DNA of 64,000 nucleotides from an uncultured Candidatus Saccharibacteria bacterium (GCA_964501355.1 CAZCSM010000006.1:2347-66346); one strand, 5' to 3'; shown: positions 26,911 through 63,812, counted from the stretch's first letter. The notes: generated by a model not told the origin, from the letters alone. Numbers and translations are program-made.

Positions 26911-27415
26911 AAAAGATTTAAAAAGTAATAATGATCAGGCAGGATTTACCCTTGTCGAGGTAATTATCTACATTGCCGTGTCCTCGGTAATGCTCATTAT
27001 TGTAGTTTCGTTCGTGCGCCATATCTTATTGGTAAGAAATAAAGTGACCATTTTATCCAAGGTGCAACAGAATGCTCGATATGCAATGACAAGGATGGTA
27101 AAAGAGGTGCGATATGCGGATGATTTGGAAGTTGTAGATCAGAATACTTTGAGACTTTCCGTAGGAGATCCACTTAGAAATCCATTGTATTTTGATTTAC
27201 AGGGAGGGGTTCTATATATGAAAGAGGGTCTTGGCGATTTCGTCGCAATAACAGGGAATGATGTGAAGGTTGGCGATGTGCTTTTTGAAGACCGTACAAC
27301 TCCAAATTCTGCAGACATTGTAAAAATAACTCTAACCATCTCACATCCTGACGCGAGTGTCTCTCCTGACAGTCAGGCAACTATTAATCTAGATACATAT
27401 GTGGCAAAAAGGTAA
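26900..27415 (+). CDS. Minor pilin (PulJ/PilW-like)
   Basis: AGFTLVEVIIYIAVSSVML prepilin signal. Confidence 0.65.
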   Translation: MIFRKDLKSNNDQAGFTLVEVIIYIAVSSVMLIIVVSFVRHILLVRNKVTILSKVQQNARYAMTRMVKEVRYADDLEVVDQNTLRLSVGDPLRNPLYFDLQGGVLYMKEGLGDFVAITGNDVKVGDVLFEDRTTPNSADIVKITLTISHPDASVSPDSQATINLDTYVAKR

Positions 27416-28715: not shown

Positions 28716-28725
28716 AATAAAATCT

Positions 28726-30465
28726 ATGACTGCCCTAGATTTTGACAAGTTAATAGAAGGTGAAGATACTTTCGGTTTGGACATTTCCAATACGAGAGTA
28801 AAAGCTATGTGGGTCACGAAATCCGGGAGAAGCAATTTACATCTTCAGAGTTTTGGTGAAGAAACAATTCCTGCAAGTGCTGTCGTAGGTGGAATAATTC
28901 GTCGTCCTGAAGTCGTTGCAGAGGCAATTAAAAAAATACTCAAAAATTCATATCCGAAACCAATTCGGACGAAATATGCCATCTGCTCAATCTCTCAAGA
29001 AAAGGTTTACCTAAAGATTGAGGATTTTCCAAATATTGAAAAGGAGAAACTTCGAGAAGCTGTCACTTGGAAAGCAAACAAGGTTCTTGCAATGCCTTTG
29101 GAAAAGATTTACTGGGATTGGCACAGACTTAATCCAAAGGAAGATGAAAGTACGGTGAGTATTCAGTTTGCAGCCGTGGAAAAGGAAGTTGTCGACTCAT
29201 ATGTCCATGCAATTCGCCTTGCCGGAATTATTCCTCTCGCATTTGAAATGGAGTCAAGTGCTGCAGGACGAGTTCTTCTAGCATCAAATGAAGAGCTTAA
29301 AGAGTCTCCATTGTTATTTGTTGATATCGGAAATAGCAATACAAATCTCTCGATTTATCATCAAGGTGGTTTTCGTTTTAATTCTTCAGTAAATGTCGGA
29401 GGAAATCAAGTAACAAAGATCATTGGTACAGAAAAAGGATTATCTCCCGTCGAGGCGGAGGAGTATCAGCGCACAACAGGACTAAAAACTAAAACAGAAA
29501 CTCTTCAATCCGCGCTTTCTGCTTCTCTCACACCAATAATCTCCGAGATGATGGGTGCAATGCGCTTCTATGATAAAACACCGGGAAAAGAAGATGACAT
29601 TAAATTGGCGAAAGTTTATGGGGATGGTGCATCGCTTAAGGGCGTCGATAAATACCTTGATGAACAGATTCCGGATCTGAAAGTGGGGTATGCAAACCCA
29701 AGTATTGGGATGATTCCGATTCCTCAATTTATTTCCCATGAGAAAATATTTCCGCATCTGGTTGTTACGGGGCTAGCGCTGAAGGGCCTCGGCAAATATC
29801 ATGAATTTGGAGATGTTAACTTCCTTCCTGCGGACGTCCAGAAAGCTTATGTAAATGAGCAGCTTAAAAAGAAAGTTGGAAATATCGTTAAGATTTTATC
29901 AATAAATATAATTGCGATTTGTGGATTCTTGTTGGGTGGACTATTTCTTCTTACTGAGGAATCGAGTCAAATCCAAGCAACAATTAATTCGAAAAAGGCG
30001 ATTCTGCAAGGTTCAAGTATTCAAACAAAGTCATTGGAGATTAGCAAATTCAATGAATCCCTTGCATCGATAAGCTCTATAATAAATTCCGAATTTGATT
30101 GGATAAAAATCTTCGATAAGATCCTTTCTGTAACTCCGGGAAATGTCGTGTTGGATAATATTGATATATATGTAGATGAGTCTTTGGCTCCGAAATCAGA
30201 ACCTATCTGGATTATTAGTCTATATGGTAGAACTGATAATAGACAAACTGTAATTGATTACAGTACAAATCTAATTTCAACGGAAGTTTTCTCAAATGTA
30301 CAAATTCCCGTTTCGGCTTTTTCTTCCGGTGAAGAGGTTGAATTTCGTATTAACATGGATCTGAGCTTTACGAATTTATTGGCAAATCCAGAAAACTTTG
30401 CTAAGAAATCTACAACACAAACAACTGGAGAATTAGAACTTAAACCTTTCACGCCTGCAAAATGA
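28726..30465 (+). CDS. pilMN: PilM-PilN fusion protein
   Basis: N-terminal FGLDISNTRVKAMWV actin-like PilM fold. One TM segment at about aa 390. A PilN-like periplasmic C-terminus. Confidence 0.65.
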   Translation: MTALDFDKLIEGEDTFGLDISNTRVKAMWVTKSGRSNLHLQSFGEETIPASAVVGGIIRRPEVVAEAIKKILKNSYPKPIRTKYAICSISQEKVYLKIEDFPNIEKEKLREAVTWKANKVLAMPLEKIYWDWHRLNPKEDESTVSIQFAAVEKEVVDSYVHAIRLAGIIPLAFEMESSAAGRVLLASNEELKESPLLFVDIGNSNTNLSIYHQGGFRFNSSVNVGGNQVTKIIGTEKGLSPVEAEEYQRTTGLKTKTETLQSALSASLTPIISEMMGAMRFYDKTPGKEDDIKLAKVYGDGASLKGVDKYLDEQIPDLKVGYANPSIGMIPIPQFISHEKIFPHLVVTGLALKGLGKYHEFGDVNFLPADVQKAYVNEQLKKKVGNIVKILSINIIAICGFLLGGLFLLTEESSQIQATINSKKAILQGSSIQTKSLEISKFNESLASISSIINSEFDWIKIFDKILSVTPGNVVLDNIDIYVDESLAPKSEPIWIISLYGRTDNRQTVIDYSTNLISTEVFSNVQIPVSAFSSGEEVEFRINMDLSFTNLLANPENFAKKSTTQTTGELELKPFTPAK

Positions 30466-31103
30466 AACAAGAAGAAGTAAAACAAATAAAAAAGCAAAAT
30501 CCAAACCAATATTATATTGTGGTAGGGTTATTTGTAGTTTCTCTCGTAGGATTATTAATCTTTAGCTATTCGCAGTTGAAGAAATCCGCGACAAAAGTCT
30601 CCGATCAACTTGCTCTGTTGAATCAGTATGCCCTGGAAGAGGCTAAGATTAATAAGCTTTTAAGTGATCATGGTGAGGTTGAGGAACAGTCATTACTTCT
30701 TACAGAAGCAATCCCAGATAAGGGGAAATTGGTGAGCTTCATTGAGAACATAGAGAAGATTGGAGAAATGCTAAATCTGGATTTAGATGTAAGACTAAAA
30801 GAGGGCGTTGTTGACGAAGATGGTGTGGTTGTTGATGTCGAATCTGAGGCAACAAAACGCGTAACTGCATATGCAGGAATATCCTCAGTGGAAGTATTGG
30901 AGGTCGGAGTTTCTGTGCGTACAGATCCGGATGAGTTTGACAAGATAATAAACTTTATCGGTATGCTCGAAGATCTTAAATATTATTCGAGAATTGTTGA
31001 TATGAAATTTATTTCTGGGTTAGACGATCGAGATGGGAGATATTATCTCGATAGTATTTTCACATTAAATTTATATGTTAAAGCCGGTACAGAATCAAAG
31101 TGA
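30462..31103 (+). CDS. pilO: PilO-like bitopic inner-membrane pilus alignment protein
   Basis: Single N-terminal TM, coiled-coil and a C-terminal alpha/beta domain. Sits after pilMN in the locus. Confidence 0.45.
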   Translation: MKQEEVKQIKKQNPNQYYIVVGLFVVSLVGLLIFSYSQLKKSATKVSDQLALLNQYALEEAKINKLLSDHGEVEEQSLLLTEAIPDKGKLVSFIENIEKIGEMLNLDLDVRLKEGVVDEDGVVVDVESEATKRVTAYAGISSVEVLEVGVSVRTDPDEFDKIINFIGMLEDLKYYSRIVDMKFISGLDDRDGRYYLDSIFTLNLYVKAGTESK

Positions 31104-36570: not shown

Positions 36571-37686
36571 ATGGTTGCTTTAGATCCCCTATCGATTGAA
36601 ATTCCTTATAAAGAGGACTTTTTGATTGATTTGACAAACAATAATTACTCTATTGAAACTGTTTATAACTACGGTAGGGATCTTACGGTCTTTGAAAGGT
36701 TTCTACAATCACGTAAAGTTCCATTTGAGAAGTTGGATAAAAGGACGATTAGTTTGTACAAAGGATTTTTACGCTCAGGGAAACATTTGGAAATAATAAA
36801 TGAGCTTCGAGATAGAGAAGAATTTTTGAAAATTACGGGACATGCTTCAATTAACATTGGTGATACGGCAGAATCTCGTGTGACGAATTCTAAGGGGGTT
36901 CTAAGCGACGATAAGGTTGCAGGTGCTACACGAGGTGCTTTGCAAAATACAAGTTTGAATAAACTCTCGGCTCGATCTGTGAATCGGATGCTTTCTGCTC
37001 TCAGATCTTACCTCGGATATTTGCTCGACTATGATTATGTATGTCCGATTGCTCCCGAAGTTATTAAACTTATAAAAACGGAACGTAAAGAATCTCAAGT
37101 TGCTGATCTTGATGAATTAATTCAAATTATCGAAGCTTCAGAATTATATGAGGAAGATGACTTTGTTAAACTTCGAAATCGTGCAATGCTTGAAGTTCTT
37201 TTTTCAACTGGGATGAGAATCTCTGAACTTGTTAGTTTAGGAACTGCGGATATTAATGCGGAAGGTAAGATCTATATTATGGGTAAAGGAAAGAAGCAGC
37301 GTATGGTTTATTTGACCGAAAGGGCTAGGGGGCATTTGAATGAGTATATGAAGAGAAGAGGGACTTCTGAATTTTCTACCTCCCCTGCTCTATTTTTATC
37401 TTCTCGCGGTCAGGGGAAAAATACGAGAAAAAGTCGAATAACTCCACGTTATGTTCAGATGAAAATTCAACAATATCGCAAACTTTTGGGGATTGTGGTT
37501 CCGGTGACGCCACATGGTTTGAGGCACGGTTTCGCAACTTATTTGGCTGAAGAAGGCGCAAATCCGGCGGCGATCCAGAGGCTTCTCGGTCATGAATCTC
37601 TTCAAACTACGACAAGATATGTGCATGCGTCGGATAAATTTGCAGAGGAAACACATAAGAAATATCATCCGCTGGCGGTGGGATAA
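36571..37686 (+). CDS. Tyrosine site-specific recombinase/integrase (XerC/D-phage integrase family) with an enlarged N-terminal SAM-like domain
   Basis: C-terminal catalytic motifs HGLRH and LLGHESLQTTTRYVH, with R...K...H.R..Y placement. It follows a 716-bp non-coding region. Confidence 0.8.
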   Translation: MVALDPLSIEIPYKEDFLIDLTNNNYSIETVYNYGRDLTVFERFLQSRKVPFEKLDKRTISLYKGFLRSGKHLEIINELRDREEFLKITGHASINIGDTAESRVTNSKGVLSDDKVAGATRGALQNTSLNKLSARSVNRMLSALRSYLGYLLDYDYVCPIAPEVIKLIKTERKESQVADLDELIQIIEASELYEEDDFVKLRNRAMLEVLFSTGMRISELVSLGTADINAEGKIYIMGKGKKQRMVYLTERARGHLNEYMKRRGTSEFSTSPALFLSSRGQGKNTRKSRITPRYVQMKIQQYRKLLGIVVPVTPHGLRHGFATYLAEEGANPAAIQRLLGHESLQTTTRYVHASDKFAEETHKKYHPLAVG

Positions 37687-42799: not shown

Positions 42800-45463
42800 T
42801 TACACTACCGCCATAGAAGCTACTTCATCATCACCTTTTACATTCATCAATTTCACACCAGTTGTTTGTCTATGCTGTGTTGGAATTCCTTCTTTCAAAG
42901 GAAGCATTATCGCAATGCCTTTCTTTGAAATTATTAACAAATCTTTATTAGGATGATCAAGAATTCTTGCGGAAATAAGTTTCCCTGTTTTACTCGTTAC
43001 CTTAAATGTAAATACACCCTGTCCGCCACGTCCCTGTACGGCATATTCTTCAAGTTTAGTCATTTTTCCATATCCCTTTTCAGAAACGAGAAGTAAACTC
43101 ACTTCACCTTCTCTGACAACATCCATTACTACAACACCATCGTCTTCTTTCTTAAACTTAATCCCGAAGACTCCCATTGAAGCTCTTCCCATCGGTCTAA
43201 CATCACTTTCTTTGAATCTGATACTTTTACCATATTTTGTAACAAGCATTACTTCATTATCTCCGGTTGTAGGTCGAACCCATGCGAGTTCATCTCCATC
43301 TTTTAGCTTGATTGCGATAAGCCCGGATGATCTGATATTACTGAATTCAGAAAGTTCAGTCTTTTTTACAATACCTGCGGTTGTTGCCATAAACAGATAT
43401 TTATATTTCTTTCCTGATTTTTCCGATTTCTCCTCTCCTTCTTGAATAACATCTTCTTCAAAGAAGCCATCTTCTGTTCGTGTTAGAACGCTGCTTACAA
43501 GCTCATTTTGGTCAACATCAATTAGATTAATAATCGGCTGTCCCTTTGCTGTTCGTCCAAAATCCGGAATTTCATGTGCCTTTAACTGGAATACCCTGCC
43601 CTTATTCGTAAAGAATAAAATATCATCATGAGTATTGCATTTAAGCACGTGTTCAACAAAGTCGCCTTCTTTTGTAGTCATTCCTTTTTTCCCGGTTCCA
43701 CCCCTGTGTTGTGGCGCATATGTACTCTCAGGCATTCTCTTAATGTATCCTTCGTGCGATATTGTAATAAACACATCTTCCGGTTTGACAAGGTCTTCTT
43801 CTGAAATCTCCCCCACTTTGCCTTTGATAACCTTTGTTCGTCTTGCATCTCCAAACTTTTCCTTAACTTCGAGAAGTTCATTCTTCACTTCATTTAAGAT
43901 TGCAATTGGATCGGCAAGAAGAATTTCTAAGTCAGCAATGAACTTTTTGATTTCCTTGTATTCTTCTTCGATTTTCTGTCTTTCAAGAGCGGCAAGTCTT
44001 CGAAGTTGCATATCTAGAATTGCTTGTGCTTGGATCTCCGAAAGCTTAAATCTCTTTATCAAATTATCTTTCGCTGTTTCCTGCGTCTTCGATTCACGAA
44101 TTGTTTTGATAACTTCATCCAGATTATCAAGTGCAATCTTCAACCCTTCCAAAATGTGTGCTCTGTACTTTGCTTTCGCCAGGTCATATTCATTCTTTCG
44201 AATAACAACTTCTTGTCTATGACTAATGAATAATTCTAATATTCTCTTTAGTGACAGGACATGAGGTTCATTCTCAACAAGTGCAAGCATATTGGCATTA
44301 AATGCCTTTTGCATCTCCGTGTACTTGAAGATTTTATTCAAAATCGTCTTTGGTTTTGCATCTTTCTTCAGTTCAACTACAACACGTATTCCTTCTCTAT
44401 TTGACTCATCCCGAAGATCTTTAATTCCATCAAGCTTCTTCTCTTTATATAAGTCTGCAATTTTAGCGACCAAATGTGCTTTGTTAACCTGGAAAGGAAG
44501 TTCTGTAATAATAATTTGGAATCTGTCTGCTTTGCTTTCTTCAATCTTTGCAACACCTCTCATCACAATTCTTCCCTTGCCGGTTGAGTATGCTTCAAGA
44601 ACAGATTCTCTGTCATAAATTACTCCGCCCGTTGGGAAATCAGGACCTTTTACAAATTCAATAAGTTCGTCAGCGGTTGCTTCAGATTGGAATTTCGGAT
44701 AAAGTGATTCTCCTTCTGCAAATGTAACGTCTTGATAAATTTCGTCAGGATTTGCGACTTCGGGAACTTTTTGAGTTTTTTCTCTTTCAATTCTTAATTC
44801 GTTATATTTTGATTTTCCTTCCCATTCATTTCCCTTATCGATCATATGGGCAAGCGCATCTACAATCTCTCCCAGATTATGAGGTGGGATTTTTGTTGCC
44901 ATACCGACAGCGATTCCGTCAACGCCATTAAGAAGAAGCATCGGAAGTTTCGACGGTAAAACGGTCGGTTCTGTATGATTTCCGTCGTAGTTTAATTCAT
45001 ATTTGACAGTATTCTTATCAATATCGGCTAAAAGATCGGCTGTGATTTTTCCCATTCTCGATTCGGTGTAACGCATCGCAGCTGCACTATCACCATCAAT
45101 AGATCCGAAGTTTCCTTGTCCGTCAACCATTAAGTATCTTGAACTGAAATCCTGTGCCATTCGAACCATTGTCTGATAAATAGCCTGATCACCATGAGGG
45201 TGATATTTTGCCATAACTTCACCAACCGTATTTGCAGATTTTCGATATGCAGAAGTTGGAGTGATCCCCAATTTATCCATGGCAAAAAGAATCCTTCTCT
45301 GCACAGGTTTCAATCCGTCTCGAACATCCGGAAGAGCTCTTGCTACAATAACACTCATCGAATAGTTAATGTACGACTTTTTCATTTCATCCGATATTCT
45401 AATCGGCTTAATGTTTTTATCAATTTGCTCTAGTTCAAGATTCTCAGTATTGTTGTCGTTCAT
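42800..45463 (-). CDS. gyrA: DNA gyrase subunit A
   Basis: AAMRYTE catalytic-Tyr region, QRR-region motifs and a C-terminal beta-pinwheel with GyrA-box-like QGRGG. 887 aa. Confidence 0.95.
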
Positions 45464-45486
45464 TTCTTAATAATTTGACCTAATAT

Positions 45487-47415
<1,929 letters not shown>

Positions 47416-48914: not shown

Positions 48915-50195
48915 TCAAGGATTTTTTGCACCGTACGTTCTTGAGTTTGCAAGTCGACTTCGAAAATCCGCAGATGATTCGGCCCAATATTGTGATCGAT
49001 ATGCTCCTATGACTTCAGCTCCTGCATATTTTAAAGTTTGAGGTAGCCGATATCGTATATTGGGGATTAATACAGATACAGTTATATCATCCGTTGCCCG
49101 TTCTCGTGTCGGTTCTTCTGGGTTGTAATTTTCGACCTGCTCCTCTTGAATTAGATAAAGGTATTGTGTAACTTCTTCTTCCGTCGTCAATGTTAAAAGT
49201 TTCCCAATTCTATGAACCAACCTCTCTTTGTCGAGTTCTTTTGTAAGATCTAAGTCATAAATGAAGCCGTCACTTGCAAGTAGGACTCCGTACACCTTTT
49301 CGACAGGGATTTGGTATAACTCGCTATTTTGCAAATGCGCAGTGTATATATCAGGCAAACCTCTTAGTACCGGAACTATGTGACGTTTGTTCACATATGA
49401 GTCCTCATAGTACCCCCTGCTACGAAGCATTCTCGAGGCATCCTCCGCACTTGAAGCCTGTCCGGATGATATTAGTTCATTTATGCGAACTGTCGTTTGT
49501 TGGTCGAAATATTTATTGGAATCTATATATGCAGGAACGATTCGACCGTCTCTCAAAATTACAAATATGGGTGCATCTCCTATTGAAGTAACTTCTACAT
49601 GTTTATACTGGTGAATACAGAACGCTGCTGTCGCACCAGGGACTTTATCCGGCGTCAATGTTGTTTCAAGGAAACCGCTAAATAGAGAATATCCTGTCGG
49701 AGGAATATGGTACATCCTTTGAAGATGTTCATTAATCTCAAATATTAATCGGGGACTTTCTACTGCTGGAAAATTATGATTTGTGAAATCTCTATGCAAT
49801 CGAGTGTTAATATAAGCGGTATCCATTCTTATGAGGAATTCTTTTATGATCCTTGGGGCAATCGTGTCAGTTCCGCCCTCGTTAACTTGGTATCTATCTG
49901 GAATTCCAATCAGTTCCAATGCTTCTGATAATGGATTGATTGGTGTGACACCATCAATAACCGCTGATATCTCAAGCATTCCATGGACTCTTTTATAAAC
50001 AGGCAGATCTCCGGAGACGGGCTTCCCCATTGCGGGTATTCCGGCTGATAGATGGGCGCTTATATATCGCTCTCCTTTTTCTGTCCAGTTCCAAGTAGAT
50101 AGCTCTGTTCCGGATGGATCTATTTCTGTGCCCATTAATACTCTTGATACACGATTACCGCCCTGCATTATACTGGATATATATGTGTGGTTCAA
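48915..50195 (-). CDS. Hypothetical protein with weak PPM/PP2C-like C-terminal motifs
   Basis: IGDAPIFVILRDG and LLASDGF resemble PP2C motifs 8 and 11. The N-terminal metal-binding DGxGG motif is not evident. Confidence 0.3.
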   Translation of the reverse strand: MNHTYISSIMQGGNRVSRVLMGTEIDPSGTELSTWNWTEKGERYISAHLSAGIPAMGKPVSGDLPVYKRVHGMLEISAVIDGVTPINPLSEALELIGIPDRYQVNEGGTDTIAPRIIKEFLIRMDTAYINTRLHRDFTNHNFPAVESPRLIFEINEHLQRMYHIPPTGYSLFSGFLETTLTPDKVPGATAAFCIHQYKHVEVTSIGDAPIFVILRDGRIVPAYIDSNKYFDQQTTVRINELISSGQASSAEDASRMLRSRGYYEDSYVNKRHIVPVLRGLPDIYTAHLQNSELYQIPVEKVYGVLLASDGFIYDLDLTKELDKERLVHRIGKLLTLTTEEEVTQYLYLIQEEQVENYNPEEPTRERATDDITVSVLIPNIRYRLPQTLKYAGAEVIGAYRSQYWAESSADFRSRLANSRTYGAKNP

Positions 50196-53264: not shown

Positions 53265-53633
53265 ATGAAAAATTTTAAAAAAGAGGAGAAAATTCAGTAT
53301 AGGGCTTATGCTTTTTCTCTTAATGTTATAAATCTTTTAAAGAGAAGTAAGAAACATGATTATATAAACGAGGTTCTTTTCAAGCAAATACTTCGTTCTG
53401 TAACTTCGATTGGAGCAAACATTATTGAGGGTCAAGCGGGAATTAGTCGTAAGGAGTTTCGAAATTATATGAGTATTGCACTCAAAAGTGCAAATGAAAC
53501 AAAATATTGGTTAGCACTAATACGAGATTTAAGGATATTTGTGAAAGATGATGTTGACTCGTTAATAGAAGAGTCAATAGAGATTGCAAATATATTAGGA
53601 GCGATTGTCTTCAAGTTAAGGAAAAATGACTAA
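53265..53633 (+). CDS. Four-helix-bundle protein (23S rRNA intervening-sequence protein family)
   Basis: 122 aa. SIGANIIEGQ...SANETKYWL matches the TIGR02436-type four-helix bundle. It is flanked by inverted A/T-rich repeats. Confidence 0.7.
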   Translation: MKNFKKEEKIQYRAYAFSLNVINLLKRSKKHDYINEVLFKQILRSVTSIGANIIEGQAGISRKEFRNYMSIALKSANETKYWLALIRDLRIFVKDDVDSLIEESIEIANILGAIVFKLRKND

Positions 53634-56752: not shown

Positions 56753-57295
56753 ATGTCTAATAAGTACTGCTCGAGAAACGGTTTTACAATAATTGAGCTG
56801 ATGATTGTGATGGCTATCATCGGTGTTCTTATGCCACTTGGTATCAATGCCTTTGTGAGTACGCGCCGATCAAGGGAAGTCGCAGAAGCTGCTGCAAACG
56901 CTCGCGATGTAATTAAAAGTGCTCGTGCAATGGCGCTTTCTGTCTCTTCGCCAATAACCGAGACTGATTGGCCCGTTGCGTATGAAGTGGTTTTCTCAAG
57001 TGGTAATAATACCGTGACAACAAATACTAGAGCCGTATCTGGTGATGAGCAATATTCGGACTGGGTTGCGGCTCCGGGATACTCAACGACGCAAGTCTCT
57101 TCATTGAATTTTGCGCCAGCATCTGTTTCAACACCTTCTTGTGATCGTGTTGTGTTTTCAAGCGTAAATGGGGAGATGTTCATCTATGATTCAATCTATG
57201 GAGTAAAGAGTAGTTGTACGATAACATTCACTTCGGGTAATAAAACTAGAACATTAGTCCTAAATTCTGCGCTTAAGCAGTTTGATATAGAATAG
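56753..57295 (+). CDS. Minor pilin (prepilin-type)
   Basis: NGFTIIELMIVMAIIGVL prepilin signal. Confidence 0.65.
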   Translation: MSNKYCSRNGFTIIELMIVMAIIGVLMPLGINAFVSTRRSREVAEAAANARDVIKSARAMALSVSSPITETDWPVAYEVVFSSGNNTVTTNTRAVSGDEQYSDWVAAPGYSTTQVSSLNFAPASVSTPSCDRVVFSSVNGEMFIYDSIYGVKSSCTITFTSGNKTRTLVLNSALKQFDIE

Positions 57296-57298
57296 AAA

Positions 57299-57715
57299 AT
57301 GAATTTTCTTAAAAAGCAAATTAAAGATCAAAAAGGCGCAAGCATTATCGAAACGCTTGTGGCATTAGCATTCATTGCGATTGTTTCATCATCATTTATC
57401 AATCTTGCAATTGTTGCAAGAAAGATTTCATTTCGGAATCGAGTGCAAAATGATCTTGGAAGATATGCGGGGATGATAGCAGAGGAAGTTGTGAAGGATT
57501 ATACATTAGAAGGGAATTCTATTATTAGTAGTAATCGATATTGTATAACTAATGTTAATAGTGAGGTTGGGGCTTTGGTTGAAGGTTTCCTTGAAACCTT
57601 TGATTCGTATACTTGCACTTTCCCTACAATAGCAGAAGGGAATTATCAAATTAAATTAACGGTAGATGTCTTTGGCAAAACGTTAGAAGCAAAAAGATTT
57701 GTGATATTAAAATGA
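57299..57715 (+). CDS. Minor pilin-like protein
   Basis: KGASIIETLVALAFIAIV N-terminus. Confidence 0.55.
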   Translation: MNFLKKQIKDQKGASIIETLVALAFIAIVSSSFINLAIVARKISFRNRVQNDLGRYAGMIAEEVVKDYTLEGNSIISSNRYCITNVNSEVGALVEGFLETFDSYTCTFPTIAEGNYQIKLTVDVFGKTLEAKRFVILK

Positions 57716-58263
57716 AGAAATTTCTTAAAAAACCGAATACTCAAGAATCCGGCTTTACGTTAATAGAATTGATGATCTCCATGGGGCTTCTTACTTTCGT
57801 CATGGGGATTTCTATGAATATTCTTTCCATTGTCCTGGAACTTACCAATGATGCTGATTATTCAGCTGTTATTACGCAGGAATCAAATTACGCATCGGAA
57901 AGAGTGAAGAGAATGGTCCGAAGTGCGGAAAAGTTTACAGTATCAGATAATGGGACACCCGAAATTGGAGATGATTCTCTGGAAATTGTTTTGGATGGTC
58001 GAACACATCAGTTGACTCTGCAACTCGTACCGGGTTTTACAGATAGGTTTACTTTGAAAGAGCAGATAAGTGGAAATCCCTCTTCCTCTATTCTTTCTTC
58101 TGAGGTATATATTAAACAATTTGGTTCAGAGCCTGTTTTTACAGATGTAAATGGAATTGGGGTTAGGATGGCCTTTGAGATATACCATGAGAGGGATGAT
58201 AATTCTAGTGCTGGTGCGTTTGTTTATACTCAGGCAATTGGTAGAAACGAGATTTTGAATTAA
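57712..58263 (+). CDS. Minor pilin (PulJ/PilW-like)
   Basis: SGFTLIELMISMGLLTFV prepilin signal. Confidence 0.65.
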   Translation: MKKFLKKPNTQESGFTLIELMISMGLLTFVMGISMNILSIVLELTNDADYSAVITQESNYASERVKRMVRSAEKFTVSDNGTPEIGDDSLEIVLDGRTHQLTLQLVPGFTDRFTLKEQISGNPSSSILSSEVYIKQFGSEPVFTDVNGIGVRMAFEIYHERDDNSSAGAFVYTQAIGRNEILN

Positions 58264-58307: not shown

Positions 58308-58342
58308 AAAAGATAAAAGATAAAAGATAAAAGATAAAAGAT
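58308..58342 (+). repeat. Heptanucleotide tandem repeat (AAAAGAT)x5 running into the ATG of the downstream gene
   Basis: Five perfect units read directly, ending ...AAAAG-ATG at 58341. Confidence 0.8.
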
Positions 58343-59096
58343 GAAAATCTGTGGTTATAGCAAAAATGAAAAAGGTCAGGTTTTATTGATGGTTATTATT
58401 ACCAGCACTATTGCTCTGCTTATAGTCACAGGTGTTTTTATGAGAGTTATGAAGTTAACACGTCAGGGTGTTGAGATGGAAACACACGATGCTGCATTTA
58501 GTGCTGCAGAAAAATACGCTAGACAGATCTTAGATCAACTAGAGTTAGGAAATACTGTGTCAGATACAACTTTGCAACAATGGGTTACTAATTACGATGA
58601 TTTAATTGCTGCAAGCAGAAATGAAATCAATAATATAAATGGATATTCTTTGGAAGATGGTAGTTCTTTTGAGATGGTTGGGGAAATGACCGGTTCTACA
58701 ACCTTCAAAATAGGTTCAGGATCTTGGGGAGATGTACGTATTCTTTTCACCTCCGTTGTTTATTCAGGGGGGCAATATTCAGTTCAAAAAAGAATATTTA
58801 AAACATGTAGTAATACTGATGGTGATTTGACAGCAGTTACATGTGCTTCTGCTTTGGATGTAGATACTTTTACTTATACACATCAGCCAGGCGAGGTTAC
58901 AGTACGAATGAAGCCAATCGGCGGAAAGGTCTCTTTAAATATAAATTCTTCTGCTAATCTATTTAATGAGTTTTCGTTTACAACTCGTGAAGAAGGCACT
59001 TTGTCCGAAGCCACATTATCAGTTCCTGTCTCAAAATCAATGCCTTCCCTATTCGATCATGTTTTGTATAATGGAAAAAGTCAAATTAATAAATGA
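58341..59096 (+). CDS. PilX-like pilus-associated protein. Paralog of the 27399-28715 gene.
   Basis: N-terminal EKGQVLLMVIITSTIALLIV shares the EKGQV-plus-hydrophobic anchor with the locus-1 PilX-like protein. Confidence 0.4.
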   Translation: MKICGYSKNEKGQVLLMVIITSTIALLIVTGVFMRVMKLTRQGVEMETHDAAFSAAEKYARQILDQLELGNTVSDTTLQQWVTNYDDLIAASRNEINNINGYSLEDGSSFEMVGEMTGSTTFKIGSGSWGDVRILFTSVVYSGGQYSVQKRIFKTCSNTDGDLTAVTCASALDVDTFTYTHQPGEVTVRMKPIGGKVSLNINSSANLFNEFSFTTREEGTLSEATLSVPVSKSMPSLFDHVLYNGKSQINK

Positions 59097-61081
59097 ATGT
59101 GTTTTTAGGAAAATCTATGGGAAAAATTTTGTTTAAAACTTTACTGATTGCTATTTCACTGATTATATTTGGGGGAATCTATTTCTTTTCCGGAAAGCCC
59201 ATTTTTGCAGCATGTGGAGATACTTGTTGTGTCTATTATTGGAAAGATGGTGCTGGAAACGATGTGTGCGGGGATTGGGATACTATTAGATGCGATGGGT
59301 GTTCTCAGAATCCTCCAGTATGTTGCGGACATTGTGGACCTTGTGCGCCAGCACCTTCTGCCGTTTGTGGAAATGGAAGTAAAGAAGGTTCTGAGCAGTG
59401 CGATGATGGTAATACAACAAGTGGGGACGGGTGTAGTAGCTCATGTATAACTGAGTTTTGCGGTGATGGGACGACACAGAACTGGCCTGGGCATACGGAA
59501 GAGTGTGACGATCATAATACAACAAGTGGGGACGGGTGTAGTAGTTTATGTATAACTGAGTTTTGCGGTGATGGTATCATACAGAATTGGCCGGGACATA
59601 CCGAGCAGTGTGATGATTGGGGTACTGCGCCTAATGATGGTTGTAGCGCAACTTGTCAAAAAGAGGTTTGGCCAATAGCAAAAATAGAGGCAATGGATAT
59701 CAACAATAATTTAATAGAGCATAACGCTCCTGGAGGTATACCTGATCTTAATCAGTATAAGGAGCTTAATCGTAGTACAAGTGATGATTATTTGAGACTT
59801 TCTACTGAGGGTCAAATTCCATTTGGATATAACATAGATCGAATAGAAATGTATTTTCGTAAAAGATATAACTTTGATGGAGCAGTTCCTTCATTAGCGG
59901 AGGCTCAGGCTGAATGTACCAACGGCTGGAGTACACCTCCTTCAAATCCCAGCTCCGCTTGGTGTGTTTATCAGACACCTCTATCATGTACATCTGGAAC
60001 ATGTTCTTCTTCAAGTGATTTTGCAACCTGGGACCCAGGCAATTACTCTTCAGGTTATTATGAATTCGTTATCAATGCTTTTGCGGATGGTGGTAATTGT
60101 ACGGGAAACCGAGATCATGATGGATATAATGCTGCGTTAGGTGTTCAAACCATAGCTCCTTGGTATGATTGTGATCCATATACGACGGAGGATGAAAGTA
60201 ACACGGTTTTCCCCAATCCTTGGTCCGGGGTAAATGAAGAAAGTGACTCTTTACAGATTGCATTGCTAGATAGCTGCGGAAATGGTATTAAAGAGGAATC
60301 TGAAGAATGTGACGATGCAAATGCTAGCAATTTTGATTCTTGTCGAGATAATTGTCTCTGGAACGTTTGTGGTGATGAGTATCCAAATACTGATGGAGAT
60401 CTTACAGATGCAACACAGACCCCACCGGCAAATAGCTATGTTGAAGAATGTGATCAAGGTGGTAATAATGGAACGGGACATGGTTGTGCACTTGATTGTT
60501 CTTTCGAAAATGGTGCTTGGTTTAGAACCTGGGATGGCGATATTTACTCAAGTGAGGGTGTCACTCAACGTGTCTCTGCAGACGTCCCCCTAGATCCTGT
60601 ATTCTCAACATATATGTGTTATGACAGTTATGGTATTTTCACAGTTGGGTTAGGATGTTTCAATACAAATATACTTGATGACGAGCCTAATTCGCCTTTT
60701 TATGTTGACTTGGATTTGAGTACAAGCGAGATTTCTCCTGTGGAAATAAAGACAAACGAAGAGTTTGTGAAAATACAAGCAAAATTATCTGGATTTACAA
60801 ATGAACAGAATTTTAGCAATAATGGAGTTGAAGTTACATTTTATAATGTTGCGGGAGGAGTCCGTACTATGCCGGAAAGAATAGAAGATAATAGAATCGT
60901 TTACTTGTCTGATAATCTAGAAATTGGGGAGAATATTGAATATAGTGAATCTTGCGCTGATGAGAAATCGTGTTCTTTATTAATTGTTGTAGATGGTAGT
61001 GTTACAATTACAAAAGATGTTGAGCATATAGACGCCTTCATTATTGCAAGTGGTAGAATTATAGTTGAGAGTGGGTATTAA
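59093..61081 (+). CDS. Secreted/membrane-anchored protein with Myxococcus-type cysteine-rich repeats
   Basis: Signal anchor, then tandem CG(N/D)G...E(Q/E)CDDGNTTSGDGCSS.C repeats (the TIGR02232-type pattern) and a large Cys-rich beta domain. Confidence 0.6.
   Translation: MNVFLGKSMGKILFKTLLIAISLIIFGGIYFFSGKPIFAACGDTCCVYYWKDGAGNDVCGDWDTIRCDGCSQNPPVCCGHCGPCAPAPSAVCGNGSKEGSEQCDDGNTTSGDGCSSSCITEFCGDGTTQNWPGHTEECDDHNTTSGDGCSSLCITEFCGDGIIQNWPGHTEQCDDWGTAPNDGCSATCQKEVWPIAKIEAMDINNNLIEHNAPGGIPDLNQYKELNRSTSDDYLRLSTEGQIPFGYNIDRIEMYFRKRYNFDGAVPSLAEAQAECTNGWSTPPSNPSSAWCVYQTPLSCTSGTCSSSSDFATWDPGNYSSGYYEFVINAFADGGNCTGNRDHDGYNAALGVQTIAPWYDCDPYTTEDESNTVFPNPWSGVNEESDSLQIALLDSCGNGIKEESEECDDANASNFDSCRDNCLWNVCGDEYPNTDGDLTDATQTPPANSYVEECDQGGNNGTGHGCALDCSFENGAWFRTWDGDIYSSEGVTQRVSADVPLDPVFSTYMCYDSYGIFTVGLGCFNTNILDDEPNSPFYVDLDLSTSEISPVEIKTNEEFVKIQAKLSGFTNEQNFSNNGVEVTFYNVAGGVRTMPERIEDNRIVYLSDNLEIGENIEYSESCADEKSCSLLIVVDGSVTITKDVEHIDAFIIASGRIIVESGY
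59402..59650 (+). repeat. 108-bp tandem DNA repeat, about 2.3 copies, encoding the 36-aa Cys-rich repeat
   Basis: gatggtaatacaacaagtggggacgggtgtagtag...gagtgtgac repeats at 59510 with roughly 90% identity. Confidence 0.7.
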
Positions 61082-61174
61082 GTTGAAATGAATATGTTGG
61101 TTTTGGAGTAAAACCATTTACGTCTTCGGTATGGGAGAAGAAGTGATAATGAAATCTTTTTAGAAAATTCTGAT

Positions 61175-62320
61175 ATGATAATGGAAAGGAAAACACGGAA
61201 AATATTAATTGAGGGAGTACTGATTCTTTTTGCAGTAAGTGTTAGTATTTCTATTTGGGGAGACAGAGAACTGGCCGAAGCTGCAACAACCTGTGTTGAT
61301 GATACATTATCTGCTTCAGTAAATAATTCTACCAAAATAAATGCAACTTCAATATGCAACGCTCCCAGTGTATCTGTTGTTAGTCCTACTCAGATAGATA
61401 TCCGATTTGAAAGGGCTGGACAACCATCCCCAGCTCTTTGCCGAAATTCTTACCCGGTAGTATATACTAGTGGAGTGGGTTGGCAGTTAACTGCTTGTTA
61501 TACAGGAACTTGTGAGACACGAACTTTGCAGGTTGCATATGAGGGATCCTTTTGGACAGGAGGCCTTGAGGATACCGATGAAGGAACGGGTGATGGACAA
61601 CCAGATTATGATATTCAAATTTCTGCGAGTATAGTACATATACCATGTTGTGGTGATGGTTCGGTGGACGCTGATGAATTATGTGATAACATAGCTCCTT
61701 ATAACTATAAAGATGATTGTGGTTATGGAGAGACAAATTGCTGTTACACTCCAGCTGTAGGAACATCTTTAATGTGTACAACATACCTCGGTCCACATTG
61801 TGGTGATGGAATTCCCAACGGGTCGGAAGACTGCGATGATGGGAATACAGTTGATGGTGATGGTTGCAATACATACACTTCTAATTGTCAACATATTTGT
61901 GGTGATGGCTCGTTAGATGAGGATGAAGAATGTGAATCTAATGGCATATGGTATGGAGGAACCGGCTTGCCTATTGGCTCCTGTACGGTTACTGACCCAC
62001 CGGGTACGTGTAAATATTGTAATGCGGCCGATTGTACCGTTCAATCTGTTGCAGACGGTGCAGATGTTCCACTTGTTGTTACAGGGGGATTGGTTGCACT
62101 TGGTCAAAATCAAAGTGATTCTGCGATTGAATTGCAGCGAAATATTATATTCTACTCCCCCATTGATGGTGAACTATATTTCGGTGATAGTACAGAAGAT
62201 TTTAACAACAATATGAGTCCCGCGGAAGCTCTTTACTATGATCCTCGTTATTTAGATATTTATAGAAATATTTTAGGCGATTTCGGAAATATACAATTTA
62301 GAGAGTCAGGTGTTCAATAA
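61175..62320 (+). CDS. Second secreted protein with Myxococcus-type cysteine-rich repeats
   Basis: Signal peptide, then CCGDGSVDADELCDN, HCGDGIPNGSEDCDDGNTVDGDGC and ICGDGSLDEDEEC repeats. Confidence 0.6.
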   Translation: MIMERKTRKILIEGVLILFAVSVSISIWGDRELAEAATTCVDDTLSASVNNSTKINATSICNAPSVSVVSPTQIDIRFERAGQPSPALCRNSYPVVYTSGVGWQLTACYTGTCETRTLQVAYEGSFWTGGLEDTDEGTGDGQPDYDIQISASIVHIPCCGDGSVDADELCDNIAPYNYKDDCGYGETNCCYTPAVGTSLMCTTYLGPHCGDGIPNGSEDCDDGNTVDGDGCNTYTSNCQHICGDGSLDEDEECESNGIWYGGTGLPIGSCTVTDPPGTCKYCNAADCTVQSVADGADVPLVVTGGLVALGQNQSDSAIELQRNIIFYSPIDGELYFGDSTEDFNNNMSPAEALYYDPRYLDIYRNILGDFGNIQFRESGVQ

Positions 62321-62346: not shown

Positions 62347-62718
62347 ATGGCAAATATACTTGTAGTAGAAGATGAAAAAGATTTATTAGATATCTATCAG
62401 GAAGTCCTGGAAGGTGCTGGTTATAAGGTTGTAACAGCAGAAAATGGTAAGGTTGCTCTCGAGAAGTTGAGCGAAAGTCCCTTTGACTTGGTACTTCTTG
62501 ACCTTATGATGCCCGAGGTAGATGGTATGGAAGTTTTGAAGGTTATTCGTGCAGATAAAGATGGGAAATATAAAAATCTGAAAGTCATTGTTCTTACAAA
62601 CCTTTCAAGCGATGTCGTGATAAAGGAAAGTTTTGATGCAAAGGCTGATGGATATTTAATGAAAACAGAGTTAACTCCAAGTCAGGTGGTCGAAGAAGTT
62701 CGAGGGTTCTTAAATTAA
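62347..62718 (+). CDS. Stand-alone CheY-like response-regulator receiver domain
   Basis: ILVVEDE...DLVLLDLMMP...K receiver signature. There is no output domain. Confidence 0.8.
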   Translation: MANILVVEDEKDLLDIYQEVLEGAGYKVVTAENGKVALEKLSESPFDLVLLDLMMPEVDGMEVLKVIRADKDGKYKNLKVIVLTNLSSDVVIKESFDAKADGYLMKTELTPSQVVEEVRGFLN

Positions 62719-62780: not shown

Positions 62781-63812
62781 ATGTCACTGCCTAATTTTTT
62801 TGGATTGGATTTTGGAAATCATACTGTAAAAATTGTTCAATTAAAAGGCCAGCAAGGAAAGCCTTCTCTTGTCAGTTACGGTGGCACCTCTACCCCATTC
62901 GGCGTCATTAGAAGTGAAAATGAAGAACACCAAAAAGGTCTTGCCGATGTGACAAAAGCCCTCGTTAAAACACTAAATATCAAGACAAATAATTGTGTTG
63001 TTGCATTGCCGGAGTCATCAATATTTACGAGACTCATTACAATTCCCGGAATGAAACCACAGGAAGTTGAAAATGCCGTATATTGGGAGGCAAAACAATA
63101 TATTCCTGTCGATTTGGAAGCTGTCCAATTGGATTGGATGGAAGTCGGCGAAACTGTAGTTGGCGAGACCGTACAAAAGAAAATACTTCTTGTCGCGGCT
63201 CCAAAGACATTGGTTGAATTATATGTAAAGGTCGTTCAGATGGCAGGTTTAGAGCCGATTGCTTTGGAAACAGAAGCAATTGCGAATGTACGAGCAATGA
63301 GCAACTCAACTCAAAATTCTAATGCTATTATCCTCGATTTTGGGGCTCAGTCTACAGATCTCGTTGTAATGAGCAAAGGAAACTTGCTTTTCTCTCAAAC
63401 TTTAAGTACCGGTTCAGATGCTTTAACAAAGGCTATTATGCAGGATTACGCGCTGAATGAAGAACAGGCGGAACAGTACAAGAGAACATACGGTGTTGAT
63501 GAAACTCAGCTTGAGGGCAAGTTAGTACAAACACTTGCACCCGTCATGAATTCCATCGTTGATGAGACGAGGAGAGCTTTGGGCTTTTATCGAACACACG
63601 CAGCTGAAGAAGCCCCGGACAAGGTTTTTCTCGTTGGCGATGGAGCAAGGCTTCCTGGATTGTCTTCATTTATGACGAAATCTTTAGGCGTTGAGTCTTC
63701 AGTAGGAAATCCTTGGAACAATATTGATTTAGGAGATCGCTTTGCTCAGGAGTTAGCTTCGGGCTCTCCTGGTTACTCTGTTGCAGTTGGTCTAGCATTA
63801 AAGTCAAAATAG
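62781..63812 (+). CDS. pilM: Type IV pilus assembly protein PilM, locus 2
   Basis: FFGLDFGNHTVKIVQL actin-like ATPase fold. 343 aa. Confidence 0.8.
   Translation: MSLPNFFGLDFGNHTVKIVQLKGQQGKPSLVSYGGTSTPFGVIRSENEEHQKGLADVTKALVKTLNIKTNNCVVALPESSIFTRLITIPGMKPQEVENAVYWEAKQYIPVDLEAVQLDWMEVGETVVGETVQKKILLVAAPKTLVELYVKVVQMAGLEPIALETEAIANVRAMSNSTQNSNAIILDFGAQSTDLVVMSKGNLLFSQTLSTGSDALTKAIMQDYALNEEQAEQYKRTYGVDETQLEGKLVQTLAPVMNSIVDETRRALGFYRTHAAEEAPDKVFLVGDGARLPGLSSFMTKSLGVESSVGNPWNNIDLGDRFAQELASGSPGYSVAVGLALKSK

What the first reader, a model, noticed from the sequence alone, without database searches (positions are those of the whole stretch)
59093..62320. Two secreted Myxococcus-type cysteine-rich-repeat proteins are embedded in pilus locus 2, one with a recent 108-bp tandem duplication
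The 662-aa and 381-aa proteins carry repeated C.G.G....ECDDGN...GDGC....C modules. This is the cysteine-rich repeat known mainly from Myxococcus surface proteins. They sit between the minor-pilin operon and pilM/pilN. The first gene contains a 108-bp DNA-level tandem repeat of about 2.3 copies at roughly 90% identity, so the repeat number is evolving. The placement suggests pilus-tip adhesins or host-contact proteins, which fits an episymbiotic lifestyle.
Basis: partly seen in the sequence, partly recalled or inferred. Interest (0 to 1): 0.65.

Follow-up and report, generated by a model that had tools for sequence, protein, structure and literature searches.

The report
Split pilus-locus surface protein pair
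Two fast-evolving, cysteine-rich secreted proteins encoded right after the minor pilins each carry one half of a single beta-solenoid domain that is one piece in related bacteria, so they probably join into a two-armed accessory protein, perhaps an adhesin, at the tip of a type IV pilus.

Summary
The two ORFs exist exactly as described: 59093-61081 (662 aa) and 61175-62320 (381 aa). Both match the Myxococcus cysteine-rich repeat, p1 strongly and p2 through one canonical module. They lie between a minor-pilin set and a response regulator followed by pilM.

The DNA repeat is real, but it is one 105-bp duplication (2.1 copies, 84-86% identity), not 108 bp x 2.3 at 90%.

The Cys repeats do not define these proteins. 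Several orthologues lack canonical repeats. The conserved parts are the C-termini. A search of 1.84 billion proteins shows that the p1 C-terminus (aa 472-662) and the p2 C-terminus (aa 295-381) are consecutive halves of one about 244-position domain. That domain is a single chain in related proteins such as P0243, P0245, P0247 and P0249. The break sits at the same position in four loci.

Long-form relatives lie in type IV pilus loci in all seven loci with enough flanking sequence. p1 and p2 diverge far faster than PilM (30-55% against 96%).

Best reading: a Sec-exported heterodimer, held together by fold complementation, acting as a PilY1-like tip accessory or adhesin. This is a new variant of a known kind, and all evidence is computational.

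The parts
56753..58263 (+). Three minor pilin genes (56753-57295, 57299-57715, 57712-58263) with a prepilin G|xxxxE N-terminus
   Evidence: N_methyl / TIGR02532 and weak GspH/I-type hits. N-terminal motifs GFTIIE, GASIIE and GFTLIE. Orthologues in L001, L006 and L012.
58341..59096 (+). p0: 251-aa PilX/GspK-like protein (hydrophobic N-terminal segment after KG|Q, no Glu5); overlaps the p1 start by 4 nt
   Evidence: No family hit. N-terminus read directly. Conserved directly upstream of the C-domain protein in L001, L002, L006 and L012 (36-62% identity). The PilX-like assignment is inferred from position and N-terminus only.
59093..61081 (+). p1: 662-aa Sec-type exported, Cys-rich modular protein
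   Evidence: ORF. TIGR02232 E=9.5e-34 and DUF4215 E=8e-21. Orthologues P0001 and P0242.
59093..59212 (+). p1 N-terminal signal-like segment (aa 1-40, ...KPIFA|AC)
   Evidence: Hydrophobicity and AxA-like site read directly. No SignalP run.
59366..59656 (+). p1 tandem Cys modules 1-3 (aa 92-188)
   Evidence: Motif reading and TIGR02232 stretches.
59402..59611 (+). 105-bp (35-codon) in-frame tandem duplication, two copies 86% identical, out of register with module boundaries; raises the local module number from 2 to 3
   Evidence: TRF: 59396-59617, period 105, 2.1 copies, 84%. Offset scan. Codon analysis. The L001 orthologue has 2 modules here and L002 has none.
59660..60274 (+). p1 middle domain (aa 190-394), beta-rich, variable between lineages
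   Evidence: No family hit. 31% identity over 121 aa to P0245 (E=4e-10). AF2 pLDDT 50-84 over roughly aa 195-335 in an otherwise poor model. Replaced by other sequence in L002.
60275..60499 (+). p1 Cys modules 4-5 (aa 395-469), leading directly into the C-domain
   Evidence: Motif reading. Conserved columns C395-C469.
60506..61078 (+). C-domain part A (p1 aa 472-662; positions 2-173 of the 244-position family HMM)
   Evidence: hmmsearch. 72% and 53-59% identical to the L001 and L002 orthologues. Contiguous with part B in P0243, P0245, P0246, P0247 and P0249.
61175..62320 (+). p2: 381-aa Sec-type exported, Cys-rich modular protein
   Evidence: ORF. TIGR02232 E=1e-10. Orthologues P0121, P0122 and P0241.
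61283..61645 (+). p2 N-domain (about aa 37-157)
   Evidence: 52% identical over 165 aa to the N-terminus of the undivided protein P0243 (E=3e-48). Conserved in L002 and replaced in L001. No family hit.
61646..62044 (+). p2 Cys modules (aa 158-290): one canonical (C209-C238), two degenerate
62057..62317 (+). C-domain part B (p2 aa 295-381; family HMM positions 174-243)
   Evidence: hmmsearch. 76-78% identical to the L001 and L002 orthologues. 48% identical to the C-terminus of P0243.
62347..62718 (+). 123-aa single-domain response regulator, conserved between p2 and pilM in all loci that reach that far
   Evidence: PF00072 E=1.4e-25. L002, L004 and L012. 94/78/66% identity.
62781..63812 (+). 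pilM
   Evidence: PF11104 E=2.6e-55 and TIGR01175 E=4.7e-63.

Best explanation
p1 and p2 are non-pilin proteins exported by the Sec pathway and rich in disulfides. They belong to the type IV pilus gene set and are encoded where PilY1-type tip proteins sit in classical operons, right after four minor-pilin-like genes.

Each protein has a variable outward-facing part built from lineage-specific domains strung on Cys-rich repeat modules. Each ends in one half of a conserved beta-solenoid domain: p1 supplies positions 2-173 (the helix and most coils) and p2 supplies positions 174-243 (the last coils and C-terminal cap).

I propose that the two halves assemble into one solenoid by fold complementation, giving an obligate heterodimer. 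This solenoid would play the role that the ice-binding-like solenoid plays in ComZ and in cyanobacterial PilX, namely docking on or capping the minor-pilin tip complex. The two fast-evolving arms would then contact the target surface.

Shown:
- the gene pair
- its conserved synteny
- the split at one position
- undivided homologues
- faster divergence than the pilus machinery

Inferred:
- Sec export
- the ice-binding-like fold, from a medium-confidence model
- heterodimerisation
- tip location
- adhesion
For: - Split domain: phmmer with the concatenated p1-C and p2-C against 1.84 billion representatives finds P0243 matching query 1-278 in one stretch (E=3e-37). P0249 (4-278), P0247 (3-265), P0244 (159-277) and about 10 short proteins span the 191|192 junction.
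- Same break everywhere: on the family HMM, every p1-type protein covers 2-173 and every p2-type covers 174-243 (window, L001, L002/3, L004/5). Seven other proteins cover 2-243. The break falls in a loop that is continuous in undivided members.
- Both halves are under constraint: C-domain identity is 53-78%, against 20-47% for the rest of each protein.
- Complementary truncation: p2 is 52% (N-domain) and 48% (part B) identical to P0243, which also has part A. The p1 middle domain matches P0245, which also has part B. p1 and p2 share only Cys modules.
- Published precedent: the ComZ solenoid is ice-binding-like and argued to sit at the tip (PMC6561018). Cyanobacterial PilX solenoids are proposed as a PilY1-replacing tip plug (bioRxiv 10.64898/2026.02.12.705559).
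- Pilus linkage of long forms in 7 of 7 informative loci: window, L001, L002, L004, L006, L012, L014.
- Tight coupling: p0 overlaps p1 by 4 nt, and the p1/p2 spacing is -8, 3, 72 and 93 nt in the four loci.
- Rate contrast between window and L002: PilM 96%, response regulator 94%, p0 about 60%, p2 50-55%, p1 30-40%.
- Sec-type N-termini and no prepilin or LPxTG motifs.
- In Saccharibacteria, large proteins with non-PilD signals encoded with the minor pilins are candidate tip adhesins (PMC11623550).
Against: - There is no experimental evidence, and no complex prediction could be run.
- The fold assignment rests on a medium-confidence model (mean pLDDT 66.5). Foldseek matches are not significant (best E=0.026, TM about 0.3).
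- No sequence-level link exists to DUF3494, ComZ or any curated family.
- In ComZ and cyanobacterial PilX the solenoid is inserted into a pilin fold, which explains how it joins the fibre. p1 and p2 have no pilin part, so how they would attach to the pilus is unknown.
- Short members of the C-domain family can be solitary genes away from pilus loci (P0252 in L009-L011), so the domain itself is not pilus-specific.
- Signal-peptide cleavage is not established. The N-terminal segments could be membrane anchors.
- Only four split loci and about two dozen family members are known.
- The full-length p1 model is uninformative (pLDDT 44.8).
Confidence: 0.5

Rival explanations
1. p1 and p2 are cell-surface proteins that are not carried by the pilus. 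They would be adhesins or envelope proteins tethered by an uncleaved N-terminal signal-anchor, or bound to the wall through the solenoid. On this view they are merely co-transcribed with pilus genes, and the solenoid is a general surface or adhesive domain.
For: - Short family members with the same C-domain are solitary genes outside pilus loci (P0252).
- The hydrophobic N-terminal segments are long, about 19-20 residues.
- One family member weakly hits pAdhesive_15 (E=0.058) and one hits tapirin (E=2e-5).
- There is no pilin module to insert into a fibre.
Against: - All seven informative long-form loci place the gene inside the minor-pilin to pilM interval, often with overlapping or near-touching reading frames.
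- This is the operon position typical of PilY1.
- The only pilus-related structures among the fold matches are tip-associated.
Confidence: 0.25
2. One reading: two independent Myxococcus-type cysteine-rich-repeat adhesins, whose key property is an evolving repeat number.
For: - Significant TIGR02232 / DUF4215 matches.
- A real 105-bp duplication.
- Repeat content varies among orthologues.
Against: - Canonical repeats are absent from the orthologues P0242, P0121 and P0122 and from P0247, so they are not the conserved functional core.
- The repeat is shared with thousands of unrelated proteins.
- The proteins are not independent. They carry complementary halves of one domain and always occur as a pair.
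Confidence: 0.1
3. p1 and p2 are structural parts of the pilus machinery of a cell without an outer membrane. They would form a wall- or S-layer-spanning collar or exit structure that replaces the missing secretin, rather than acting as adhesins.
For: - No pilP or pilQ follows pilM-N-O in the related locus L012.
- The C-domain is conserved while the rest varies.
- The position between the pilins and pilMNO fits either role.
Against: - Very fast divergence and domain swapping of the N-terminal and middle parts (20-47% identity against 96% for PilM) are typical of exposed ligand-binding proteins, not of machinery.
- Gene number and architecture vary between loci: one fused gene in L006, two full copies plus extra genes in L012.
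Confidence: 0.1
4. The pair is a broken gene: a single ancestral gene disrupted by mutation or assembly error and now decaying.
For: Undivided homologues exist.
Against: - The split is at the same HMM position in four independently assembled loci with different intergenic spacing.
- p2 has its own signal-like N-terminus and its own N-domain.
- Both halves are the best-conserved parts of their proteins.
- p1 and p2 derive from two different full-length types.
Confidence: 0.03

Closest known systems
ComZ, competence-pilus tip pilin of Thermus thermophilus (PDB 6qvi; PMC6561018)
   Different: In ComZ the solenoid (about 380 residues) is inserted into a GspK-like pilin fold with an N-terminal pilin helix, and it is a single chain. 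Here the solenoid is the C-terminal domain of Sec-type non-pilin proteins and is divided between two polypeptides. No sequence similarity is detectable. ComZ binds DNA; no ligand is known here.
Cyanobacterial PilX family with an apical beta-solenoid (bioRxiv 10.64898/2026.02.12.705559)
   Same: An ice-binding-like solenoid associated with the core minor-pilin set, proposed as a tip plug in organisms that lack PilY1. Neither window protein matches a PilY1/PilC family either.
   Different: There the solenoid interrupts the pilin fold of PilX itself. Here the PilX-like p0 is small (251 aa) with no C-domain hit, and the solenoid is on separate downstream proteins and is split.
PilY1 / PilC tip-associated proteins of type IVa pili (Pseudomonas, Neisseria, Myxococcus)
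   Same: Large non-pilin protein with a Sec-type signal, encoded with the core minor pilins, with a conserved C-terminal domain and a variable N-terminal part. This description rests on established knowledge and on Treuner-Lange et al. 2020 as cited in PMC11623550.
   Different: The conserved C-terminal domain of PilY1 is a beta-propeller. No PilY1/PilC family hit was found here, and the modelled fold is a solenoid. PilY1 is one chain.
PilX1 and PilX2 of Nanosynbacter lyticus TM7x (PMC11623550)
   Same: In a Patescibacteria organism with two type IV pilus systems, large proteins with non-PilD signals encoded with the minor pilins are candidate tip adhesins. pilX2 deletion lowers host binding. 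The window also has two pilus loci.
   Different: Their accessory domains are a beta-jelly-roll and a seven-bladed propeller on a pilin-like stalk. They have no Cys-rich repeats, no solenoid and no split.
Myxococcus cysteine-rich acidic repeat proteins (TIGR02232 / Pfam DUF4215)
   Same: Same repeat module, at scores above the cutoffs.
   Different: The repeat is a widely shared building block found alongside PA14, PPC, FGE-sulfatase and other domains in Myxococcota and many other groups. Those proteins lack the C-domain, and no pilus link was seen or tested for them.
DUF3494 ice-binding proteins and the related adhesive domain pAdhesive_15 / choice-of-anchor A
   Different: No significant sequence match. 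Nothing suggests ice binding. Those domains are single chains.

Membership tests
TIGR02232 / DUF4215 cysteine-rich acidic repeat | HMM score above the curated cutoff | tested here: met
   p1: 114.9 bits against 20.8 (NCBIfam) and 74.5 against 27 (Pfam). p2: 41.2 against 20.8 (NCBIfam), but 26.5 against 27 (Pfam, marginally below).
TIGR02232 / DUF4215 cysteine-rich acidic repeat | Repeated ~31-35-residue module with four spaced Cys and an acidic E-x-C-D-D-G-N core | tested here: met
   Read directly: p1 modules at C92, C123, C158, C395 and C426; p2 canonical module at C209 with degenerate modules at C159 and C242.
Type IV pilins / pseudopilins | Prepilin leader ending in Gly, then a hydrophobic helix with Glu5 (N_methyl motif) | tested here: not met
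   No N_methyl / TIGR02532 hit for p1 or p2, while the four neighbouring pilins do hit. No G-x-x-x-x-E motif in the N-termini.
ComZ / cyanobacterial PilX-type solenoid-bearing tip pilins | Ice-binding-like triangular beta-solenoid | tested here: inconclusive
ComZ / cyanobacterial PilX-type solenoid-bearing tip pilins | Solenoid inserted into a GspK/PilX-like pilin fold within one chain | tested here: not met
   The solenoid is C-terminal on Sec-type non-pilin proteins and is split over two genes.
PilY1 / PilC tip adhesins | Conserved C-terminal PilY1/PilC beta-propeller domain | tested here: not met
   No such Pfam or NCBIfam hit at E<=0.01 for the full proteins, nor at E<=10 in Pfam for the C-terminal fragments. 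The modelled fold is a solenoid.
PilY1 / PilC tip adhesins | Non-pilin, Sec-type protein encoded with the core minor pilins | tested here: met
   Gene order in the window and in six other loci. N-termini.
PilY1 / PilC tip adhesins | Physical association with the minor-pilin tip complex and a role in priming or adhesion | not testable with these tools
   Needs biochemistry, imaging or genetics.
DUF3494 ice-binding proteins (Pfam Ice_binding) | Sequence match to the family model | tested here: not met
   No hit for the window C-domain at E<=10, and no Ice_binding hit for any of 23 family members at E<=1.
Sortase-anchored (LPXTG) surface proteins | C-terminal LPXTG motif followed by a hydrophobic tail | tested here: not met
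   No LPxT[GAS] motif and no C-terminal hydrophobic segment in p1, p2 or any relative.
New C-domain family (uncurated): split form | p1-type protein ending at HMM position ~173, followed by an adjacent p2-type protein carrying positions 174-243 | tested here: met
   Window, L001, L002/L003 and L004/L005.

The most novel reading that the evidence does not exclude
A beta-solenoid pilus-tip module has been split into two genes, so the pilus tip accessory is an obligate heterodimer assembled by fold complementation. This lets two independently evolving and exchangeable binding arms (the p1 and p2 N-terminal and middle domains on Cys-repeat stalks) be combined on one conserved docking domain. It would be a previously undescribed way to diversify type IV pilus adhesins in an uncultured, probably monoderm, lineage.
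Probability: 0.3. Interest if true: 0.7.

Novelty: new variant of a known kind. Interest (0 to 1): 0.55.

Why it matters
Type IV pili are the main candidates for how ultrasmall and other uncultured bacteria find and hold on to surfaces or host cells. What sits at the pilus tip is known for only a few model organisms.

This locus points to an uncurated protein family that occupies the PilY1 position. It carries the same kind of solenoid recently tied to pilus tips in Thermus and cyanobacteria, but on separate secreted proteins. In one clade the solenoid is cut in two, so two variable proteins must pair.

If that is correct, it gives a testable model for how tip adhesins are attached and diversified without a pilin module. 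It also provides a natural example of a beta-solenoid assembled from two chains.

A practical point for annotation: these genes are currently labelled, if at all, only by the promiscuous DUF4215 repeat. That label hides both their relationship to each other and their link to the pilus.

Tried and rejected
- Full-length homologue searches were swamped by DUF4215 proteins. Only P0001, P0121 and P0122 were true relatives.
- A word-index search with the C-domain profile found only one new relative, P0241. The exhaustive HMMER search was what revealed the family.
- Two scans of GTDB species genomes, with the p2 C-terminus and with PilM, found no relative. The metagenome scan with PilM added only short contigs.
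- Taxonomy could not be established. Look-ups of encoding contigs for p1 and PilM returned nothing. The window holds no rRNA and only tRNA-Leu.
- Pfam and NCBIfam give nothing significant for the window's own C-domain halves, the p1 middle domain, the p2 N-domain or p0. The strongest hits from other family members are isolated single-member ones: tapirin 2e-5, FwdC 2.7e-4, FapA 7e-4.
- PDB sequence searches, with a single sequence and with the family profile, gave nothing significant.
- The full-length p1 AlphaFold model was too poor to use (mean pLDDT 44.8). The Cys modules were not modelled, so no fold search was run on it.
- My early impression that the L002 p1 orthologue carries a DUF4114-like domain got no Pfam support and was dropped.
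- No paralogue of the C-domain or of the Cys modules exists elsewhere in the window, including the first pilus locus.
- The promoter and terminator scan found nothing above the shuffle expectation and no terminator between p0, p1 and p2.

Full report
**What is in the sequence**

p1 matches the Myxococcus cysteine-rich acidic repeat strongly. TIGR02232 gives E=9.5e-34 with four stretches, and Pfam DUF4215 gives E=8e-21. p2 matches through a single canonical module: TIGR02232 E=1e-10, and Pfam 26.5 bits against a cutoff of 27.

Reading the proteins directly gives five modules in p1. Three are in tandem at aa 92-188 and two lie at aa 395-469. p2 has one canonical module flanked by two degenerate ones.

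The surrounding genes are a complete type IV pilus locus. The order is pilB, pilT, pilC, a pilin, a prepilin peptidase, three N_methyl minor pilins and a 251-aa PilX-like ORF (p0) lacking Glu5. Then come p1, p2, a 123-aa response regulator and pilM.

**The DNA repeat**

Tandem Repeats Finder reports period 105, 2.1 copies and 84% matches at 59396-59617. An offset scan finds 90 of 105 identical bases at offset 105 (59402-59506 against 59507-59611) and no more than 36% at any other offset from 87 to 123.

It is a single in-frame duplication of 35 codons, out of register with the module boundaries, and it turns two modules into three. The copies differ by 8 synonymous and 5 nonsynonymous codons, and the longest identical run is 30 nt. 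Their third-position identity is 74%. PilM and the response regulator show 55-59% at third positions between the window and its closest relative L002.

So the duplication postdates that split but is not fresh.

**The repeats do not define these proteins**

Full-length searches return thousands of DUF4215 proteins that match only the repeats, and those proteins combine the repeat with many unrelated domains. True relatives are very few: P0001 for p1, and P0121, P0122 and later P0241 for p2.

These relatives sit on metagenomic contigs with the same gene order (L001, L002/L003, L004/L005).

Alignments show that the N-terminal and middle parts are poorly conserved or replaced outright, while the C-termini are highly conserved. 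Canonical TIGR02232 repeats number 4 in the window p1 and 2 in P0001. P0242, P0121, P0122 and P0247 have none.

**The split domain**

I concatenated the conserved p1 C-terminus (aa 472-662) and p2 C-terminus (aa 295-381) and searched 1.84 billion representative proteins with full HMMER.

- P0243 (710 aa) matches the whole 278-residue query in one stretch (E=3e-37).
- P0249, P0247 and P0244 also cross the junction.
- About ten short proteins of 187-340 aa cross it as well.

On a 244-position HMM built from this family, every p1-type protein covers positions 2-173 and every p2-type protein covers 174-243. This holds in the window, L001, L002/3 and L004/5. Seven other proteins cover 2-243 in one chain. 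The break lies in a short loop that is continuous in the undivided members.

p1 and p2 are not simply two pieces of one gene.

- p2 shares its N-domain (52% over 165 aa, E=3e-48) and part B (48%) with P0243, which also has part A.
- The p1 middle domain matches P0245 (31% over 121 aa, E=4e-10), which also has part B.
- p1 and p2 resemble each other only in the Cys modules.

So two different full-length types exist elsewhere, and in this clade each has kept a complementary half. Both halves are the best-conserved part of their protein: 53-78% identity, against 20-47% for the rest. This argues for function and against decay. The related locus L012 carries two undivided copies in one pilus locus, so tandem full-length copies do exist.

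**Fold**

AlphaFold2 on the joined halves, with a 23-row alignment, gives pTM 0.70 and mean pLDDT 66.5. A confident core (pLDDT 73-92) spans residues 80-220, across the junction at 191/192. It consists of one long helix followed by successive beta-strands.

No sequence-level link to any curated family or solved structure was found. The fold assignment is therefore plausible but rests on a medium-quality model.

**Why the fold matters**

The ComZ paper shows that its solenoid is of the ice-binding type, argues on steric grounds that ComZ must sit at the pilus tip, and shows that it binds the neighbouring pilin PilA2 (PMC6561018).

A 2026 preprint reports that all cyanobacterial PilX homologues carry such a solenoid. 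It proposes that the solenoid acts as the tip plug in organisms lacking PilY1 (bioRxiv 10.64898/2026.02.12.705559).

In Saccharibacteria, large proteins with non-PilD signals encoded with the minor pilins are candidate tip adhesins, and deleting pilX2 halves host binding (PMC11623550).

**Linkage and evolutionary rate**

Long-form family members lie within pilus loci in all seven loci that have enough flanking sequence:

- the window
- L001
- L002
- L004
- L006, where the fused P0243 directly follows p0
- L012, where P0245 lies between the minor pilins and the response regulator, pilM, pilN and pilO
- L014, where P0247 follows a prepilin peptidase and N_methyl pseudopilins

L007/8 and L013 are too short to judge. 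A short member, P0252, is a solitary gene elsewhere, so the domain itself is not restricted to pili.

Between the window and L002, PilM is 96% identical and the response regulator 94%. p0 is about 60%, p2 50-55% and p1 30-40%, with the p1 N-terminal and middle part at only 20-29%. Whole domains are exchanged between lineages. That pattern is typical of exposed, ligand-contacting proteins.

p1, p2 and all relatives have a basic-hydrophobic N-terminus with an AxA-like site. None has a prepilin motif, an LPxTG motif or a second hydrophobic segment (heuristic).

**Interpretation**

The best-supported model has three parts.

- p1 and p2 are Sec-exported, disulfide-rich proteins that pair by completing one solenoid from two chains.
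- This solenoid plays the docking or capping role that the same fold is thought to play in ComZ and cyanobacterial PilX. Its operon position is that of PilY1.
- The variable arms on Cys-repeat stalks contact the target.

Shown are the gene pair, the split, the undivided homologues, the synteny and the rate contrast. Inferred are export, the fold, heterodimerisation, tip location and adhesion.

The main rival is that they are cell-surface proteins merely co-expressed with the pilus. The solitary short family members and the absence of any pilin module support that rival. A machinery role and a broken-gene reading are less likely, for the reasons given under each rival.

**Limits**

The organism could not be identified. 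The window proteins come from an unnamed 69.6-kb NCBI contig. No relative was found in GTDB species genomes by two motif-seeded scans. All relatives come from metagenome assemblies.

The absence of pilP and pilQ after pilMNO in L012 suggests a cell without an outer membrane.

No multimer prediction or coordinate inspection was possible, and the full-length p1 model was unusable.

**Verdict**

[quoted passage not shown] I rate it a new variant of a known kind of pilus-tip accessory and of moderate interest. Every step beyond sequence comparison is still inferred.

Noticed in passing
window 23020-31103: A second, earlier type IV pilus-like locus. It holds a PilB-like ATPase with an MshEN domain, PilC, three pseudopilins, a 438-aa protein (27399-28715) with no family hit, a 579-aa PilM-like protein and a 213-aa ORF. 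The 438-aa protein occupies the slot that p0/p1/p2 hold in locus 2 but has no C-domain or Cys-module similarity.
   Followed up: partly
window 53265-53633: A gene for a 23S rRNA-intervening-sequence protein (PF05635, E=1.5e-23) sits between pilT and pilC.
   Followed up: no
window 62347-62718; L002 3741-4112; L004 1633-2004; L012 12274-12645: A 123-aa single-domain (CheY-like) response regulator is conserved between the C-domain protein and pilM in every locus that extends that far. Identity to the window copy is 94, 78 and 66%. L014 also has a 126-aa response regulator inside its minor-pilin cluster.
   Followed up: partly
window 59093-61081 (protein cluster record): In the 90%-identity protein clustering, p1 is filed under a 52-aa ENA fragment from a 1.19-Mb contig as cluster representative. 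This hid p1 from the homologue searches. What that fragment is, and why it clusters with p1, was not examined.
   Followed up: no
L012 4915-10004: Between the p0-like gene and P0245, the related locus L012 carries extra genes. These are a 535-aa protein, an 834-aa Cys-rich protein (37 Cys) with a second undivided C-domain, and two small ORFs of 167 and 125 aa with hydrophobic N-termini.
   Followed up: partly
L012 12729-17188: pilM-pilN-pilO is followed directly by ribosomal protein S16, a KH-domain protein, RNase III and NusB on the other strand, with no pilP or pilQ secretin. This suggests a pilus system of a cell without an outer membrane.
   Followed up: no
L013 541-1653: The undivided family member P0246 lies next to an rve-family transposase gene.
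   Followed up: no
L009 / L010 / L011 (P0252 at L009 10001-10819): A short 272-aa member of the C-domain family is a solitary gene. It sits between a MazE/PIN toxin-antitoxin pair and prenyltransferase and mevalonate-pathway genes, near arginine deiminase and arginyl-tRNA synthetase genes, with no pilus genes within 10 kb.
   Followed up: partly
window 36571-37686 and 48915-50195 (-): A phage-integrase-family recombinase, and a 426-aa protein with a weak PP2C-like phosphatase match immediately upstream of pilB on the opposite strand.
   Followed up: no
window 42800-47412 (-): The GyrA and GyrB sequences as called here are not found verbatim in the protein collection, although neighbouring proteins from the same contig are. 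Different start-codon calls are the likely reason.
   Followed up: no
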